Shown here piece by piece: positions 57,218-62,176 of a stretch of 64,000 nt of DNA. The notes beneath the pieces are model-generated. The model had not been told where the DNA came from, made no database searches, and saw nothing but the letters and a program-made list of their open reading frames with translations. The stretch lies in NCBI GenBank assembly GCA_028817405.1, contig JAPPPS010000006.1, positions 2,863 through 66,862 on the forward strand. The letters run 5' to 3'. Source of the stretch: Gammaproteobacteria bacterium (GTDB lineage Bacteria; Pseudomonadota; Gammaproteobacteria; Arenicellales; Poriferihabitantaceae). How positions within the stretch are numbered: position 1 is the first letter of the stretch; each line of letters opens with the position of its first letter. Position numbers and translations under genes: made by a program.

Positions 57218-58765
57218 ATGAAATATCTGCCGTTGCATCACGACTTCGTCGGTCGCCGTTGTTTGGTGGTCGGCGGCGGGCGGGTCGCGGCGCGGCGCGC
57301 GGCGCGGGTTATCGACGCCGGCGGGCGCGTGGATGTGGTCGCGGTCGCGGCCGGCGATGAACTCAAACGCCAAGTGGAAGCGGCCGGCGGCACGGTACAG
57401 TTGCGCGCGTTCGCGCCCAGCGACTTGGACGGCGCGGCGGTAGCGTCGGCCGCATCGCCATCGCCGGCCACACCGTCATCGCCGGCATCATCGCCATCAC
57501 CGGCATCATCGCCCGCGTCGCCCCCATCGAACCCGTCGGACCCATCACCCGCGGCAACCCCATCACCCGCATCGCCCCCGTCACAGTACCAATTGGTCAT
57601 CGCCGCCACCGACGACCGCGCGGTCAACCGCCGAGTCGCGGCCGAGTGCAATCGGCGCGGTCTCCCGGTCAATGTCGTCGACGATGCGCGGTTGTGCGAT
57701 GTCGTGTTTCCGCTCACCATCGACCGCGACCCCATCACCATCAGCGTGGCCAGCGGCGCCGCCTCGCCGACCCTCGCGCGGCTGCTCGGCGCGCGCATCC
57801 AGTCGTTGCTGCCGTCCGGCTACGGCGAGTTGGCGCGCTTGGTCAGTCGCTTTCGCAAACAAGCGCAAGCGCGCATCCCGGACACCGCCGCGCGCATCAA
57901 ATTCTGGGAAGACATCCTGCAAGGCGTGGTCGCCGAGAGCGTATTCTCCGGCCAGTTCGACGAAGCCGAACGGTTGTTGACGCAAGCCTTGGAATCGCCG
58001 GCGCATGCGACCGGCGCAGCCGGCAAAATCGGCGAGGTCTATCTCATCGGCGCCGGCCCCGGCGACCCCGACCTGCTCACCTTGCGCGCGTTCCGCCTGC
58101 TGCAGTCGGCCGATGTGGTGTTATACGACCGCTTAGTCGCGCCGGAAATCTTGCGCATGCTGCGCGCCGACACCGAGTCCATCTATGTCGGCAAACAACG
58201 CGCCGCGCATGCGCTGCCGCAGCCCGGCATCAACCGCATGCTGAGCGATTATGCGCGCGCCGGCAAACGCGTGGCGCGGCTGAAAGGCGGCGACCCATTC
58301 ATCTTCGGCCGCGGCGGCGAGGAAATCGAACACTTGGCGGATGAGGGAATTCCGTTTCAAGTCATCCCCGGCATCACCGCGGCCAGCGGCTGCGCCAGTT
58401 ACGCCGGCATCCCGCTGACGCATCGCGAGCACGCGCAGTCGGTGCGCTTCGTCACCGGCCAGTTGCAGGACGGCAGCGTCAACCTCGACTGGGAATCGTT
58501 GGTCGCGCCGGGCCAAACCTTGGTGTTCTACATGAGTTTGAACGGCTTGCCGCTCATTTGCGAGAAGTTGCTCGCGTTCGGCTTGTCGCCCAGTTTGCCG
58601 GTGGCGTTGATTGAAAAAGGCACCACGCTGCGCCAGAAAGTTTATGTCAGCACCTTAGGCGAGATGCGCGCCGAGTTAACCCGCGCCGCCCCCCGCGCCC
58701 CCACCCTCTTCATCGCCGGCAAAGTCGTCTCCCTCCGCCGCAAGTTGAATTGGTTTGGGACATGA
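57218..58765 (+). CDS. cysG: siroheme synthase
   Basis: VVGGGRVA, VNVVD, GAGPGDPDLLT, RLKGGDPFIFGRGGEE, GIPLTHR. Confidence 0.96.
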   Translation: MKYLPLHHDFVGRRCLVVGGGRVAARRAARVIDAGGRVDVVAVAAGDELKRQVEAAGGTVQLRAFAPSDLDGAAVASAASPSPATPSSPASSPSPASSPASPPSNPSDPSPAATPSPASPPSQYQLVIAATDDRAVNRRVAAECNRRGLPVNVVDDARLCDVVFPLTIDRDPITISVASGAASPTLARLLGARIQSLLPSGYGELARLVSRFRKQAQARIPDTAARIKFWEDILQGVVAESVFSGQFDEAERLLTQALESPAHATGAAGKIGEVYLIGAGPGDPDLLTLRAFRLLQSADVVLYDRLVAPEILRMLRADTESIYVGKQRAAHALPQPGINRMLSDYARAGKRVARLKGGDPFIFGRGGEEIEHLADEGIPFQVIPGITAASGCASYAGIPLTHREHAQSVRFVTGQLQDGSVNLDWESLVAPGQTLVFYMSLNGLPLICEKLLAFGLSPSLPVALIEKGTTLRQKVYVSTLGEMRAELTRAAPRAPTLFIAGKVVSLRRKLNWFGT

Positions 58766-58816
58766 AAGCATCGCAGATTGTCCGCGCTTGTTATAGTCGC
58801 GGGAATCGTGAATGTT

Positions 58817-59908
58817 ATGCGTGACAAATCCACTGCATCTGACGCGGCTGGCGGCAAGGGCGGCGACGGTTCTGGCGGCGGCGACTCGGCTGCCGGCGTC
58901 GACGCCACCGTCGGCGGCGCGTTTTTTCGGCGCGCTTTTTGTCTTGACGGGCGCGTGGCGGTGGTCACCGGCGCGTCATCGGGGTTGGGCGCGCACATGG
59001 CCGCGACTTTGGCGCGGGCCGGGTGCAAGGTGGCGCTGGCGGCGCGGCGCGCGGCGCGTCTGGAGGCGGTGGCCGAGTCCATCGCCGAGGTCATCGCCGA
59101 CGCCACCGACACCGGCACCGTCGCCAACACCAACGCCAGCGCCAACACCAACACTGTCGCCAACGCCGGCACCGTCGCCAACGCCAACACCGTCGCCAAC
59201 ACCAACGCCGGCACCAACACCGGCGCCAACGCCACCGACACCGGCGCGGCGGCCGACACTGGCACCGTCGCCGGCACCGGCACCGGCACCACCACCGCGG
59301 TCGAAAGCAACAGCCGCCTCTTGACGGTAACCATGGATGTGCGCGAGCGCGATGCGGTGGAGGCGGCGTTTGCGCGCATCGACGCGCATTTCGGCCGCGT
59401 CGATATTCTGGTCAACAACGCCGGGGTGGCCGCGCCGCGGCGGTTCTTGGACATGAGCGAGGCCGAGTGGCAAGGCGTGGTGGACACCGATTTGAGCGCG
59501 GTGTGGCGGGTCGGCCAGGCGGCGGCGCGGCGGATGGTCGCGCAGGATTCCGGCGGCGCAATTATCAACATCGCCTCCATGCTTGGCGTCGGCGTGCAGC
59601 GCGGGCAGGCGAACTACGGCGCGGCCAAGGCCGGGGTGATTCAACTCACGCGCAGCATGGCGTTGGAACTGGCGCGCCATGGGGTGCGCGTGAATGCGCT
59701 GGCGCCGGGCTATTTCGCCACCGAAATGAACCGCGAGTTTTTGGAAAGCGCGCGCGGCCGGGAATATGTCGCGGGGTTGTTGCCGGGCCGCGCCGGCCGC
59801 CTGCACGAACTGGACGGCGCGCTGTTGTTGTTGGCCAGCGACGCCGGCGGTTATATCAACGGCAGCGTGCTGAGCGTCGACGGTGGCGCGCTACTCGGCG
59901 GTTTGTGA
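58817..59908 (+). CDS. short-chain dehydrogenase/reductase with low-complexity insertion
   Basis: [24 protein letters not shown]; start uncertain. Confidence 0.9.
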
Positions 59909-60059: not shown

Positions 60060-60147
60060 TGGCGGAGAGCGAGGGATTCGAACCCCCGGACCTGTTACAG
60101 TCAACGGTTTTCAAGACCGCCGCATTCGACCGCTCTGCCAGCTCTCC
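60060..60147 (-). tRNA. tRNA-Ser (anticodon UGA)
   Basis: GGAGAGCTGGCAGAGCGGTCGAATGCGGCGGTC-TTGAAA-ACCG...long variable arm...GGTTCGAATCCCTCGCTCTCCGCCA; TATAAT upstream at 60185-60180. Confidence 0.97.
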
Positions 60148-60312
60148 GGTGGCGCGCATCCGTGGGCGCGGATGCGCGGATTATAATCGAACCCCGAATC
60201 GGCGGCCCGGGCGGCCCCGGGCGAATCGGCGCAGGGCAAAACGCAGGGAAAAACCGCGGCGCGCGGCAACCCCGCCCGGCGCCGGTTCCGCCGCCGAGGT
60301 TCGCGCGCGCGG

Positions 60313-60687
60313 TTAACCGCAACCCCGGCAAGCGCGCTGGTCGCCGCTGATGTGGTCGCCCATGCCGGGGTAGTGAAGCGTGCCGCTGTTGTTCAGCATG
60401 GAGTTGATGCGCGCGCGCGCGGCGGCCGAGATGCAGCCGGCCGCTTGCACGCCGGCCAAGTCATCCTCGGTCAACTCTTCGCGGATTGTGTCCACCGCCA
60501 TGTGGCAGGTGTCGGCGCGGTCGGTGACCACCTTGACGGCCACCGTCGCGGCGTCGCCGTCGGCCGGGGCGACGCCGAACGCGGCTAACGCTTCGGGGTC
60601 CAACTTGCGCAGTTTGGCGCGAAACGCCGGGTCAAACATGGCCGCGCGCAGGGCGCGGGTGTCGGTCGGGTTGAGGGCGGTTTGCAT
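60313..60687 (-). CDS. NHLP (nitrile-hydratase-like leader) RiPP precursor 1
   Basis: Leader A.FDPAFR..L...DP.A....G...VKVV.D..DT.H...ELTEDDLAGVQAAG, then a 40-aa core. Confidence 0.8.
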   Translation of the reverse strand: MQTALNPTDTRALRAAMFDPAFRAKLRKLDPEALAAFGVAPADGDAATVAVKVVTDRADTCHMAVDTIREELTEDDLAGVQAAGCISAAARARINSMLNNSGTLHYPGMGDHISGDQRACRGCG

Positions 60688-60726
60688 GGTCTGATTCCTG
60701 GTTTGAATGACCGGCAAAGATAGCAC

Positions 60727-60764
60727 AAATCCCCGCCGCCGGCGCGGACGCCGGAGCGGGGTTT
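60727..60764 (-). terminator. GC hairpin downstream of precursor 2
   Basis: CCCCGC-CCGGCG/CGCCGG-GCGGGG stem, related to the hairpin at 61529-61567. Confidence 0.55.
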
Positions 60765-60911
60765 GGGCCGGTTTTGGCTGGTTGGCGCGGCGCCGATTTG
60801 CGCAGCGCGGGGAATCTTGCGCGGCGCCGGGAATCTTGCGCGGCGCGGGCCGGCCGGGCGCCGGCGCGCCGGGCGTTGCAACGGGGGGTGCGCCGGCGCG
60901 CCGGCCTCGGT

Positions 60912-61262
60912 TTAGCCGCCGCGGTCCTCGGATTGCGGATGGCTGATGTGGTCGCCCATGCCGGGGTAAAACCAACTGTTTTTCATCTGCGCTTTCGCCC
61001 ATTCCTGAGCCGCGCTGCCCGCGGCCGAGATGTTCTCCAAGTCGGCGGCGCTCAGGTTGTCCGGCAACTCGCGCGGCAGCGAGATGTGCAGCGTGTCGCT
61101 GCGGTCGGTGACCACCCGGATTTCCGGCTGGTGGTCTTGCGACAAGCCAAGCATCGCCAGCGCGCTCGGGTCGTTGTCGCGCACTTGCTCGCGGAAGGCC
61201 GGGTCGTACAGGTCTTCCAGGGTGGCCGTGGGGCCGGTGTCGGTTTGCGTGTTCATCGTCAT
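60912..61262 (-). CDS. NHLP RiPP precursor 2
   Basis: GAGG RBS; LYDPAFRE..DP.A....G...IRVV.D..DTLHISLP..LSAADLENISAAG, then a 34-aa core. Confidence 0.85.
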   Translation of the reverse strand: MTMNTQTDTGPTATLEDLYDPAFREQVRDNDPSALAMLGLSQDHQPEIRVVTDRSDTLHISLPRELPDNLSAADLENISAAGSAAQEWAKAQMKNSWFYPGMGDHISHPQSEDRGG

Positions 61263-61528
61263 GTCCTCGTCGGGTTGAAGGGTAAAGGATAAACCGAAGC
61301 GGCTCGTCCTTCCGTTGCGCGCACTTTATAAACGGCGCGCGCGCACTGTAAAGACAAGTTTTTATGCGGCCGGAAAAGGGCGTTATACAGCGGGGAATTG
61401 GCGGAGTGGATTGGCGGGGTTGATTAGCGGGGTTCGCCGCGGCATCGCCGGCGTGGCGGTGCGCGCCCGCTTAACGGAATGCGGGCGTGGCGAGTGGGGG
61501 GCGGTCGCAGCGTGGCGACCCAATACAT

Positions 61529-61567
61529 AAAAAAATCCCCGCGCGGCGCGGACGCCGGGCGGGGATT
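61529..61567 (-). terminator. intrinsic terminator downstream of precursor 3
   Basis: AATCCCCGC...GCGGGGA followed by a T7 tract on the minus strand. Confidence 0.8.
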
Positions 61568-61597
61568 GGCGGTGCGGCGGCGCGGCGCCGCCGGCGC

Positions 61598-61939
61598 TCA
61601 GCCGCCGTGGCCGGGCTTGTTTGCCAGATAGCCCTCGGTGAGGAAGCGGCCGGAGAACAGCGAGCGCACGCGTCGCCAGAACTCATGCCAGCCGATGCCG
61701 GCCGAGATGTTCTCCAAGTCGGCGGCGCTCAGGTTGTCCGGCAACTCGCGCGGCAGCGAGATGTGCAGCGTGTCGCTGCGGTCGGTGACCACCCGGATTT
61801 CCGGCTGGTGGTCTTGCGACAAGCCAAGCATCGCCAGCGCGCTCGGGTCGTTGTCGCGCACTTGCTCGCGGAAGGCCGGGTCGTACAGGTCTTCCAGGGT
61901 GGCCGTGGGGCCGGTGTCGGTTTGCGTGTTCATCGTCAT
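61598..61939 (-). CDS. NHLP RiPP precursor 3
   Basis: Leader identical to precursor 2, ending LENISAG, then a different 32-aa core. Confidence 0.85.
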   Translation of the reverse strand: MTMNTQTDTGPTATLEDLYDPAFREQVRDNDPSALAMLGLSQDHQPEIRVVTDRSDTLHISLPRELPDNLSAADLENISAGIGWHEFWRRVRSLFSGRFLTEGYLANKPGHGG

Positions 61940-62176
61940 GTCCTCGTCGGGATTGAAGGGTAAAGGATAAACCAAAGCGGCTCGTCCTTCGTTGCGCGCA
62001 CTTTATAAATGATGAACGCGCACTGTAAAGAATAGTTTTTATGCTTTGGAAAAAGGCGTTATACACCGGGGGGTTGGGCAAGCGGCGGCGCGACAGATTT
62101 CCGGCCGCCCGATTGAACAAGCAACTTGCGGCGATTTGTGGTGTAATCGCGGGGGTTTTTTATCGTGGGCGATGCC

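What the first reader, a model, noticed from the sequence alone, without database searches (positions are those of the whole stretch)
60313..62072. Orphan array of three NHLP/proteusin-type RiPP precursors with shuffled leader and core modules
Seen: three co-oriented 113-124 aa ORFs, each with a roughly 82-aa leader (DPAFR..DP..V+VV.D..DT.H..L(S/T)..DL..(I/V).A(A)G) and a distinct 32-40 aa core. Core 1 is CISAAARARINSMLNNSGTLHYPGMGDHISGDQRACRGCG, core 2 is SAAQEWAKAQMKNSWFYPGMGDHISHPQSEDRGG and core 3 is IGWHEFWRRVRSLFSGRFLTEGYLANKPGHGG. Genes 2 and 3 share about 370 bp (61022-61395 versus 61699-62072; coding leader identical, upstream region slightly diverged), and identity stops right at the predicted cleavage site. 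Genes 1 and 2 have diverged leaders but share an identical 27-bp core block (60346-60372 = 60942-60968, YPGMGDHIS). Known: NHLP leaders ending in an L(S/T)xxxLxx(V/I)xG-type motif are cleaved by C39 peptidase ABC transporters and direct proteusin maturases. Inference: this is a combinatorial peptide library, built by duplication and leader/core recombination and matured in trans, because no YcaO, radical SAM maturase, LanM, halogenase or C39 transporter is adjacent. I do not recognise these cores or the YPGMGDHIS motif from any described RiPP.
Basis: partly seen in the sequence, partly recalled or inferred. Interest (0 to 1): 0.88.

Follow-up and report, generated by a model that had tools for sequence, protein, structure and literature searches.

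The report
Orphan leader-tagged secreted peptide genes
Three small neighbouring genes of a sponge-symbiont bacterium encode peptides that carry a long enzyme-derived "leader" tag; the enzymes and exporter that handle such tags lie elsewhere in the genome, so this is a scattered version of a known peptide-making system with two undescribed peptide types.

Summary
Three co-oriented genes (124, 116 and 113 aa) are present. Genes 2 and 3 share a 253-nt identical segment covering exactly the leader. Genes 1 and 2 share an identical 27-nt block. Contigs from four independent studies confirm the tandem copy.

The leaders belong to the nitrile-hydratase-like (NHLP) clan by profile, but score below the curated TIGR03793 cut-off. 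They are 3 of 15 paralogues in this genome. The other 12 have Ser/Thr/Gly/Cys-rich cores typical of published "dehydrazole" proteusins.

The machinery exists in trans:
- two fused YcaO cyclodehydratases (C14)
- an azoline oxidase, a LanM-type dehydratase and a nitroreductase (C52)
- an NHLP-type C39 exporter (C20)

In two relatives the homologous enzyme and exporter genes and related precursors form one cluster.

New points:
- A promoter box shared by 13 precursor promoters, conserved in three relatives.
- Two conserved, Ser/Thr-poor core families, so this is not a random library.
- Cores 1 and 2 are whole-length paralogues, not shuffled modules.

Most likely these are exported, leader-cleaved peptides with little or no modification.

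The parts
60313..60687 (-). g1, 124-aa precursor. Leader is residues 1-84 (60436-60687). Core is residues 85-124 (60316-60435), with three invariant Cys and the YPGxGDH motif.
   Evidence: Core conserved in 6 of 6 metagenome homologues.
60912..61262 (-). g2, 116-aa precursor. Leader is residues 1-82 (61017-61262). Core is residues 83-116 (60915-61016), ending ...YPGMGDHISHPQSEDRGG.
   Evidence: Core type conserved in P0002-4, 6, 7, 9.
61598..61939 (-). g3, 113-aa precursor. Leader is residues 1-81 (61697-61939). Core is residues 82-113 (61601-61696), of the GWHxFW...LFxGRFL type.
   Evidence: Core type conserved in P0010 and P0011.
61022..61274 (.). Copy 1 of the 253-nt exact repeat: the g2 leader-coding part plus 12 nt upstream of the start codon.
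   Evidence: D1; junctions seen in independent contigs.
61699..61951 (.). Copy 2 of the 253-nt exact repeat (g3 leader).
   Evidence: D1.
60346..60372 (.). 27-nt block identical to 60942-60968 (YPGMGDHIS in g1 and g2).
   Evidence: (D8).
61372..61391 (-). Precursor-promoter box before g2 (CTGTATAAC...TTTTCC on the minus strand), followed by an A-tract and a -35-like hexamer about 39 nt from the box start.
   Evidence: (29.0 bits).
62048..62067 (-). Precursor-promoter box before g3.
   Evidence: (31.4 bits).
61323..61352 (-). Sigma-70-like promoter of g2 (TTTACA, 18 nt, TAAAGT).
62000..62029 (-). Sigma-70-like promoter of g3.
61538..61552 (-). Terminator-like hairpin plus T-run after g3.
60858..60899 (.). 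Palindrome just after the g2 stop. Together with a terminator-like hairpin at 60732-60748 it lies between g2 and g1. No promoter-like site or box precedes g1.
   Evidence: (I4).
60253..60267 (-). Terminator-like hairpin after g1.
61439..61503 (.). Copy of a genome-wide short repeat (REP-like), lying between the g3 terminator and the g2 box.
   Evidence: 82 blastn hits on 51 contigs; summed contig depth over 2000 against about 70 beside it in run X5.
60060..60147 (-). tRNA-Ser(UGA) bordering the array.

Best explanation
g1-g3 are real, separately promoted precursor genes for secreted peptides.

Each has about 82 residues of a folded, nitrile-hydratase-alpha-derived (NHLP-clan) leader. The leader ends in a double-glycine-type site (L-x4-L-x2-I/V-x-A-(A)-G) and is followed by a 32-40-residue core.

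They depend on machinery encoded elsewhere. The NHLP-type HlyD/C39-ABC1/ABC2/TolC-like exporter on contig C20 is inferred to cut off the leader and export the core.

The same leader family is used by 12 paralogues with Ser/Thr/Gly/Cys-rich cores. Those paralogues are the likely substrates of the dehydrazole-type enzymes: two fused E1-like/YcaO cyclodehydratases on C14, and a ThcOx-type oxidase, a DUF4135 LanM-type dehydratase and a nitroreductase on C52.

The three window cores are Ser/Thr-poor and conserved as discrete families. I infer that g2 and g3 leave the cell unmodified or nearly so. g1, with three invariant Cys including a C-terminal CxxC, ends up with a disulfide, a bound metal or a few thiazol(in)es.

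Transcription is inferred to be co-ordinated with all other double-glycine peptide genes of the genome through a shared promoter box. g1 is probably read through from the g2 promoter.

The g2/g3 leader identity reflects recent gene conversion confined to the leader module.

Shown: gene structure, family membership at profile level, presence of the machinery and its clustering in relatives, the box, and core conservation.

Inferred: cleavage, export, degree of modification, co-regulation and biological role (bacteriocin-like or signalling).
For: Leader family:
- The profile of 23 members hits nitrile hydratase alpha (1v29_A, E 1.6e-12) and NHLP leader structures (8tb1_A 1.8e-8, 9cjx_A 2.6e-5).
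- 18 of 23 members hit TIGR03793 below its cut-off, and 3 of 23 hit TIGR01323.
- There are 15 family members among 20,090 ORFs of the genome.

Machinery in trans:
- TIGR03796 at 865.9 bits (cut-off 853.3) and TIGR03794 at 198.2 bits (cut-off 156.2) on C20.
- The C39 domain keeps the Cys of the QxxxxECG motif (motif recalled). The only other C39-like ABC (C74) is HlyB-type, sits next to RTX-repeat proteins, and has Ser at that place.
- Two fused TIGR03882+TIGR03604 YcaO proteins.
- ThcOx/nitroreductase, DUF4135 (1066 aa) and a nitroreductase on C52.

Association:
- Strong leader matches (E below 1e-12) occur in 4 of 61 related genomes: G000, G009, G011 and G029.
- 69-70%-identical full-length orthologues of YcaO1 (79% over the YcaO half) occur in the same 4, and in none of the other 57 with this query.
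- In G011 and G029 the precursors, both YcaOs, the exporter and a 1013-1033-aa gene form one cluster. That gene, and the oxidase and nitroreductase beside it, were annotated only in G011, where the large gene is the DUF4135 dehydratase.
- The G011 cluster also holds three family-leader genes with Ser/Thr-poor cores, next to the exporter.

Real, selected genes:
- All three core types are conserved in metagenome proteins at 61-90% identity.
- GC3 is high (0.87 for the C20 paralogue; pattern).
- Each has promoter-like and terminator-like sites.

Box:
- 14 PWM hits of 20 bits or more against 0 in the reversed genome.
- 13 of the 14 precede double-glycine-leader ORFs. Three of these were not used to build the matrix, and they uncovered new precursors with Nif11-like and short leaders.
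- The box is present before arrays in G011, G029 and G009.

Little modification:
- The S+T+G+A+C fraction of the cores is 0.31-0.47, against 0.6 or more in 30 of 48 family members.
- A YPGxGD(Y)I-type core also occurs behind a short, non-NHLP double-glycine leader on C74 under the same box. The motif therefore does not need an NHLP-dependent enzyme.

Haft et al. 2010 (PMC2887384, passages read) found NHLP conservation tied more to the transporter than to tailoring enzymes.
Against: - No expression or product data are available.
- TIGR03793's curated cut-off is not reached.
- An 82-residue leader is costly if only export is needed. The genome's short-leader peptides show a short leader can be used, which favours recognition by a leader-binding maturase.
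- g1 keeps Cys at core position 1 and a CxxC, which are classic heterocyclisation or lanthionine-type residues. Conserved Ser residues (HIS, QSE) in g2-type cores could also be modified.
- The box was not found before the YcaO, oxidase or exporter operons with my patterns, so co-regulation of precursors and machinery is not shown.
- No immunity gene lies beside the array.
- g1 has no recognisable promoter and is separated from g2 by two hairpins.
- The exact cut site (after AG/AAG or one residue earlier) is inferred only.
Confidence: 0.55

Rival explanations
1. Fully fledged dehydrazole-type RiPPs. The family leader docks g1-g3 onto one of the two YcaO cyclodehydratases, which converts their few Cys/Ser/Thr to azol(in)es. 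The LanM-type dehydratase then dehydrates Ser next to azoles, before export.
For: - Same leader family as the 12 Ser/Thr-rich paralogues.
- The leader family and the YcaO pair co-occur in 4 of 4 genomes and are clustered in G011 and G029.
- G011 keeps Ser/Thr-poor cores inside the same cluster.
- g1 has three invariant Cys, and the g1/g2 types share an invariant Ser in DH(I/S)S.
- Pei et al. 2023 (PMC10676384, passages read) show leader-dependent YcaO and leader-independent LanMbC chemistry on NHLP precursors. They note a cluster with two YcaOs, one LanMbC and many divergent precursors.
Against: - g2 and g3 have no Cys and only 4 Ser (g2) or 2 Ser and 1 Thr (g3).
- Whole-core conservation of aromatic, charged and Pro/Gly positions looks like a peptide used as such.
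- A related core motif occurs behind a short non-NHLP leader.
- The published class is defined by Ser/Thr/Cys-enriched cores.
Confidence: 0.3
2. Not exported products. These would be small nitrile-hydratase-like domain proteins that act inside the cell, for example as decoys, regulators or immunity factors that bind the maturases or the exporter.
For: A core-less, leader-only NHLP protein (79 aa) is conserved next to the exporter genes in G000, G011 and G029. Leader-like domains with a non-precursor role therefore probably exist in this system.
Against: - g1-g3 keep the double-glycine-type motif and a conserved C-terminal extension of peptide size.
- They share the promoter box with obvious precursors.
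Confidence: 0.07
3. Decaying or artefactual copies: remnants of Ser/Thr-rich precursors with scrambled 3' ends, or a collapsed or duplicated assembly.
For: The genome does hold at least one apparently frameshifted family member (C105). Exact repeats are prone to mis-assembly.
Against: - Each core type is conserved at the protein level in other samples.
- The reading frames are intact.
- The junctions are reproduced in contigs of 4 studies.
Confidence: 0.03

Closest known systems
NHLP (nitrile hydratase leader peptide) precursors and their TIGR03794/03796/03797 export cassette (Haft, Basu and Mitchell 2010, PMC2887384; passages read)
   Same: - Long leader homologous to nitrile hydratase alpha, without the metal site.
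- A Gly-Gly-type site at the end of the homology.
- Large paralogous families.
- Precursors far from the enzymes.
- Co-occurrence with the C39 ABC exporter.
- The 'mix-and-match' evolution noted there.
   Different: - Scores stay below the curated TIGR03793 cut-off.
- The site is mostly A-A-G.
- The three cores are poor in Cys/Ser/Thr and are conserved rather than hypervariable.
Dehydrazoles (carnazolamide; YcaO + dehydrogenase + LanMbC on NHLP precursors; Pei, Zhu and Nair 2023, PMC10676384; abstract and passages read)
   Same: - The genome has the enzyme set: YcaO x2, ThcOx-type oxidase, and a DUF4135 protein of 1066 aa with no LanC hit.
- 12 paralogues have fitting Ser/Thr/Cys-rich cores.
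- The paper mentions an uncultured gammaproteobacterial cluster with two YcaOs, one LanMbC and many divergent precursors. This is the layout seen in G011.
   Different: - In this genome the system is split over at least three contigs, plus at least 9 precursor loci (family-leader genes alone lie on 7 contigs).
- g1-g3 do not have the class-defining core composition.
- No radical SAM epimerase or methyltransferase was found with them.
Prochlorosins (one promiscuous enzyme, many scattered Nif11-leader precursors; 29 predicted in P. marinus according to Haft 2010; the rest recalled)
   Same: - Conserved leader with unrelated cores.
- Precursor genes scattered singly and in arrays.
- Processing in trans and a double-glycine exporter.
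   Different: - Leader of another family.
- No LanC-type cyclase in the genome.
- The cores here are conserved families.
Class II double-glycine bacteriocin and peptide-pheromone regulons of lactic acid bacteria (e.g. the plantaricin locus; recalled, not checked in a paper here)
   Same: - Unmodified peptides with double-glycine leaders.
- One C39 ABC exporter.
- All peptide promoters carry the same upstream repeat box.
   Different: - Those leaders are 15-30 residues.
- The box is bound by a known response regulator, and immunity genes lie alongside.
- None of this is shown here.

Membership tests
NHLP leader peptide family (TIGR03793) | Sequence similarity to the nitrile hydratase alpha subunit | tested here: met
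   The profile of 23 family members hits PDB nitrile hydratase alpha chains from E 1.6e-12, and NHLP leader chains at 1.8e-8 and 2.6e-5. 3 of 23 members hit TIGR01323.
NHLP leader peptide family (TIGR03793) | Score at or above the curated model cut-off (50.9 bits) | tested here: not met
   g2 scores 21.5 bits, g3 23.4 bits, and g1 has no hit. Genome-wide, 0 of 11 matches are over the cut-off.
NHLP leader peptide family (TIGR03793) | Gly-Gly-type cleavage motif where the homology ends | tested here: met
   L-x4-L-x2-(I/V)-x-A-(A)-G sits at the end of the conserved block in all three genes and in the family alignment. Cleavage itself was not tested.
NHLP leader peptide family (TIGR03793) | Same genome holds the TIGR03794/03796/03797-type exporter | tested here: met
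   TIGR03794 and TIGR03796 are over their cut-offs on C20. A second ABC without a peptidase domain lies next to them. The exporter is not adjacent to the window genes.
NHLP leader peptide family (TIGR03793) | Core rich in Cys/Ser/Thr | tested here: not met
   The S+T+G+A+C fraction is 0.47 (g1), 0.35 (g2) and 0.31 (g3). g2 and g3 have no Cys.
Dehydrazole-type proteusins (Pei et al. 2023) | YcaO, azoline dehydrogenase and a DUF4135 dehydratase without a zinc-type LanC domain | tested here: met
   All are present in the genome. They are clustered with family precursors in G011 and G029; in G029 only the YcaOs and exporter were identified by homology. They lie in trans to the window. The class III-like C-terminal domain of the DUF4135 protein was not examined.
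Dehydrazole-type proteusins (Pei et al. 2023) | [quoted passage not shown] | tested here: not met
   Met by 12 paralogues but not by g1-g3. The chemistry is not testable here.
Class II unmodified double-glycine bacteriocins | Short (15-30 aa) double-glycine leader, adjacent immunity gene and dedicated exporter | tested here: not met
   The leader is about 82 aa. No further small ORF with coding signature lies beside the genes. The exporter is in trans. Only the last 12 leader residues fit.
Prochlorosin-like lanthipeptide libraries | LanM with a LanC cyclase domain in the genome | tested here: not met
   PF05147 gives no match in the 93%-complete genome.

The most novel reading that the evidence does not exclude
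The three genes would belong to a genome-wide regulon defined by a promoter box: 13 promoters and about 23 genes. In it, four unrelated leader types (dehydrazole-type NHLP-like, canonical NHLP, Nif11-like and short double-glycine) are wired to one cis-element and one exporter. Core modules such as YPGxGD and NPALHPD(D/A)P move between leader types.

On this reading g1-g3 would be new families of largely unmodified secreted peptides, possibly metal-binding or signalling molecules in the sponge holobiont. They would have taken over a RiPP leader purely as an export and regulation handle, and the leader module would be kept uniform by gene conversion.
Probability: 0.3. Interest if true: 0.7.

Novelty: new member of a known kind. 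Interest (0 to 1): 0.5.

Why it matters
It shows how a compact RiPP gene cluster, intact in two relatives, can be dispersed over a genome while its precursors stay linked by a common leader and a common promoter box. That gives a practical way to find orphan precursors that gene-cluster miners miss.

The two conserved Ser/Thr-poor core families (YPGxGDHIS...RG(C)G and GWHxFW...LFxGRFL) have no described product. They recur in sponge metagenomes of six studies, so they are candidates for peptides that matter in the symbiosis.

The box is a testable handle on how a symbiont switches on its whole secreted-peptide repertoire.

Tried and rejected
- **Complex prediction** of YcaO1 (843 aa, alignment of 6) with g2 (alignment of 10): verdict 'no answer', score 0.00, controls not run (error, 78). 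No conclusion drawn.
- **AlphaFold2 of g2** with the 23-row alignment: mean pLDDT 55.9, too low for a fold search, so none was run.
- **Expression:** no RNA holder listed among 22 runs, so nothing can be said.
- **Metagenome contig scans** with g2 and with a 10-row alignment found no confirmed relative. The neighbourhoods of the metagenome homologues could therefore not be read. That g1-like and g2-like proteins share contig lengths (2827, 4744, 1374) hints at adjacency but was not verified.
- **ESM Atlas** with the g2 core: no usable hit.
- **Pfam:** no family for any of the three proteins.
- **Radical SAM maturase idea:** the hit beside the C20 precursor is lipoyl synthase and the one in the window is HemW. 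The other 8 of 10 hits were not annotated.
- **C74 C39-like ABC as second exporter:** rejected. It is HlyB-type, lies next to RTX-repeat proteins, and has no Cys at the catalytic position.
- **Leader tree:** needs at least 6 changes of core class (shuffled mean 14.8), but strongly supported branches force only 1. Repeated core swapping across the family is therefore not proven.
- **LytTR-type site:** considered for the box and dropped. The match to the recalled consensus is poor.
- **Typed matrix script:** The matrix was then built from genome coordinates.
- **Supplementary figures** of Pei et al. 2023 (cluster drawings) could not be seen. Whether their uncultured-symbiont cluster is the same lineage as G011 is open.
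Full report
**Observation**

The minus strand of 60313-61939 holds three ORFs with their own starts: g1 60313-60687 (124 aa), g2 60912-61262 (116 aa) and g3 61598-61939 (113 aa).

The repeat finder gives an exact 253-nt repeat, 61022-61274 = 61699-61951. It runs from 12 nt upstream of the start codon to the codon for ...ENISA, just before the predicted cut site. Upstream of it the two copies are only 82-95% alike over about 138 nt. A 27-nt block (60346-60372 = 60942-60968) is identical in g1 and g2 and encodes YPGMGDHIS in frame.

g2 and g3 are each preceded by a sigma-70-like promoter. Terminator-like hairpins follow g3 and g1, and two hairpins lie between g2 and g1; two promoter-like sites were found against 0.3 expected in shuffles. 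A tRNA-Ser borders the array. The flanks are CysG, an SDR and RidA.

**Is the duplication real?**

The stretch is held by 20 of 22 listed runs from 6 studies of sponge metagenomes. I laid the contigs of four runs from four studies. All show the pattern expected of a true 253-nt tandem repeat in short-read assemblies. Contigs break inside the repeat, but separate pieces join core 2 to the repeat, core 3 to the repeat, and the repeat to each of the two different promoter regions.

- In run X5 a 484-nt contig covers 61245-61728 without a difference. It runs from the 5' end of the g2 leader, through the g2 promoter and the g3 core, into the 3' end of the g3 leader.
- One repeat-internal piece has about twice the flanking depth (157 against 60-68). 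Two others have 78-90.

**What the leaders are**

Against NCBIfam, g2 and g3 hit TIGR03793 (NHLP leader) at 21.5 and 23.4 bits, far below the 50.9-bit cut-off. g1 only grazes TIGR04509. Pfam finds nothing.

A profile built from the genome's own copies finds 15 members among 20,090 ORFs: C153 x3, C78 x4, C60 x2, the three window genes, C143, C54 and C15. It also finds weaker, more canonical NHLP genes on C105, C18 and C20.

A 23-row alignment of the family (A1) gives these results:
- It hits PDB nitrile hydratase alpha chains from E 1.6e-12, and two deposited 'NHLP leader peptide' chains at 1.8e-8 and 2.6e-5.
- 18 of 23 rows hit TIGR03793 below the cut-off.
- 6 of 23 hit the thiocillin-type RiPP model through their cores.
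- 3 of 23 hit nitrile hydratase alpha.

A leader-only profile finds 171 cluster representatives at E up to 1e-10 among 1.84 billion proteins, and 2754 at E up to 1e-3. The latter include true nitrile hydratases.

The leaders are thus a divergent branch of the NHLP clan. They are not members by the curated threshold.

**The paralogues and the machinery**

The 12 other family members end in 32-53 residues of Ser/Thr/Gly/Ala with a few Cys and a shared ...STLGT..ST.S... pattern.

None of the arrays checked (C78, C153) has enzymes beside it. Their neighbours are ligA, zipA, smc, rplI, dnaB and alr.

The genome nevertheless holds a full kit:
- Two tandem 843-881-aa proteins that fuse the TOMM leader-binding/E1-like part (TIGR03882) to a SagD-type YcaO (TIGR03604), on C14.
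- A ThcOx-type azoline oxidase, a 1066-aa DUF4135 (LanM-dehydratase) protein with no LanC hit, a nitroreductase and an S8 peptidase, on C52.
- On C20, a TolC-like protein, an NHLP-system HlyD (TIGR03794, 198 bits, cut-off 156), the peptidase-ABC exporter (TIGR03796, 865.9 bits, cut-off 853.3) and a second ABC.

The C39 domain of the exporter keeps the Cys of its QxxxxECG motif (motif recalled). The only other C39-like ABC (C74) is a HlyB-type exporter beside RTX-repeat proteins and has Ser there.

**Comparative genomics ties these parts together**

Among 61 related genomes, strong leader matches (E below 1e-12) occur only in G000, G009, G011 (same genus) and G029 (another genus of the family). 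The same four carry 69-70%-identical full-length orthologues of YcaO1 (79% over the YcaO half). The other 57 have none with this query, though 9 have a 47-48%-identical single fused YcaO. Kin are not independent, so this is an association, not a test.

In the complete genome G011 everything lies in one block of about 30 kb. It contains:
- three family-leader genes with Ser/Thr-poor cores
- the exporter
- a core-less NHLP protein
- the oxidase
- the DUF4135 protein
- the nitroreductase
- a precursor
- both YcaOs
- six more precursors

G029 has the same arrangement, as far as gene sizes and the YcaO, exporter and precursor matches show.

This enzyme set with NHLP-type precursors rich in Ser/Thr/Cys is the published 'dehydrazole' class. 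Pei, Zhu and Nair 2023 (PMC10676384; abstract and passages read) describe carnazolamide. They mention an uncultured gammaproteobacterial cluster with two YcaO/dehydrogenase pairs, one LanMbC and many divergent precursors. A search for 'dehydrazole' or 'LanMbC' finds only that paper.

In the window's genome the cluster has been dispersed. Each piece lies inside its contig between housekeeping genes.

**A shared promoter box**

They share GTGTATAA(A/C)(A/G)CC-N2-TTTCC, then an A-tract, then a -35-like hexamer that starts 38-39 nt from the box start.

- The 11-mer pattern occurs 11 times in the genome. About 1.8 would be expected from base composition (my arithmetic).
- A matrix built from ten sites scores 14 places at 20 bits or more, against 0 in the reversed genome.
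- 13 of the 14 lie upstream of an ORF with a double-glycine-type leader.
- The three such sites that were not used to build the matrix revealed new precursor genes: a Nif11-like leader on C31 and short leaders on C160 and C51. A 15.9-bit site precedes the NHLP gene on C20.
- The one exception, on C54, lacks the A-tract/-35 part.
- g2 and g3 each have the box (61372-61391 and 62048-62067). g1 does not, and probably depends on read-through from g2, as do the inner genes of the C78 and C153 arrays.
- The box also precedes precursor arrays in G011 (4 sites), G029 and G009.
- I did not find it in front of the YcaO, oxidase or exporter operons.

**The three cores**

Metagenome proteins show that each core type is a conserved family.

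- Six g1-like proteins (65-99% identical) keep C85, C120, C123, S87, the SGT, YPG-GDH-S and QRACRGCG.
- Six g2-like proteins (68-89%) keep (F/Y)(F/Y)PGxxD(H/R)ISHPQSE(N/D)RGG behind a variable amphipathic stretch.
- Two g3-like proteins keep GWHxFW..VR.LFxGRFL.

Cores 1 and 2 align over their whole length, so g1 and g2 are diverged paralogues rather than carriers of one transplanted block. The 27-nt identity includes two rare codons: P is about 0.005, with 8 of 8 codons identical inside the block against 22 of 40 outside. In this strain g1 has Met where its relatives have Gln or Arg, and g2 has Gly where its relatives have His, Tyr or Asn. Together these suggest a short conversion tract.

For g2/g3 the evidence for conversion is strong. 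There are zero differences in the leader-coding 253 nt beside 5-18% divergence in the promoter. On the leader tree g3 sits with g2 and P0002 (SH-aLRT 92-93), not with the other type-3-core genes, which pair with each other (90).

Across the family the tree needs at least 6 changes of core class, but well-supported branches force only one. Widespread shuffling is therefore plausible, not proven.

Two further hints of core mobility between leader types:
- a YPGDGDYI core behind a short leader on C74
- an NPALHPD(D/A)P core found behind short leaders on C51 and behind a family leader in P0038

Among the 150 best family representatives, the YPGxxDH and WHxFW motifs occur only in the close relatives P0001-P0017.

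**Distribution**

None of the 11 other genomes of the genus has DNA matching the array. Only the flanks, REP pieces and one 41-nt stretch match among the listed hits, and 34 weaker hits were not listed. In those genomes the SDR-tRNA-Ser and ridA-recG pairs lie apart. A genome-wide REP-like repeat (82 hits on 51 contigs) sits between g3 and g2.

**Mechanism and verdict**

The genes are real precursors that rely on trans machinery. Cleavage and export by the C20 system is the best-supported step. It rests on motif, family and co-occurrence, and on Haft et al. 2010 (PMC2887384, passages read), who tie NHLP conservation chiefly to this transporter.

Whether the YcaO/dehydratase enzymes touch these three cores is open.
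- Against modification: composition, whole-core conservation, and the short-leader relative of the motif.
- For modification: the long leader, and for g1 the invariant Cys.

I put 0.55 on 'exported with little or no modification', 0.30 on 'true dehydrazole-type products', and the rest on minor rivals.

The kind of system is known. New here are the two core families, the promoter box and the dispersed layout.

Noticed in passing
G000 contig C20:9480-9719 (L002), with orthologues in G011 (L058 15379-15804, minus strand) and G029 (L061 6975-7214, minus strand): A 79-aa NHLP-leader-only protein with no core after the leader (TIGR03793, 36.9 bits). It is conserved next to the exporter's TolC-like gene in three genomes. 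It could be a decoy, chaperone or regulator of the export system.
   Followed up: partly
G000 contig C74:25704-25967 (minus strand); box at C74:26052: A short double-glycine-leader peptide whose core carries KYPGDGDYI, resembling the YPGxGDHI motif of g1 and g2. It sits under the same promoter box and next to a gamma-glutamyltranspeptidase-like gene (this assignment is recalled from the sequence look, not scanned).
   Followed up: partly
G000 contigs C51:11755-12917, C31:2924-3390 and C160:75343-75670: Further box-preceded peptide genes. C51 has two short-leader genes with an NPVNPALHPDDP core, and one of them runs through a masked N stretch. C31 has a Nif11-like leader. C160 has a Lys/Ala-rich short leader.
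   Followed up: partly
G000 contig C105:22704-23074: A family-type precursor whose N-terminal and C-terminal halves lie in different frames. It is probably a frameshifted pseudogene; intact relatives are P0050 and P0059.
   Followed up: no
window 58778-59908 (SDR), 57218-58765 (CysG) and the 5' part of recG from 62700: These housekeeping genes carry long in-frame low-complexity inserts (Thr/Ala/Asn/Gly or Ser/Pro runs). The SDR is 376 aa here, against 256-290 aa in three relatives. This fits earlier notes of this scan on in-frame repeats in this genome.
   Followed up: no
window 61439-61503: A REP-like repeat with 82 blastn hits on 51 contigs lies between two self-promoted small genes.
   Followed up: partly
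window 60020 and 61393 (run X16, table 5c): One contig joins 61393 back to 60020 with 27 other letters between. This may be a strain with a rearranged or re-duplicated array.
   Followed up: no
G000 contig C52:49432-51927 (L068 15432-17927, minus strand): An 831-aa S8 subtilase and an FAD-linked oxidase lie directly upstream of the oxidase/DUF4135 genes. The published carnazolamide cluster uses an S8 leader protease, so a second leader-removal route is possible.
   Followed up: no
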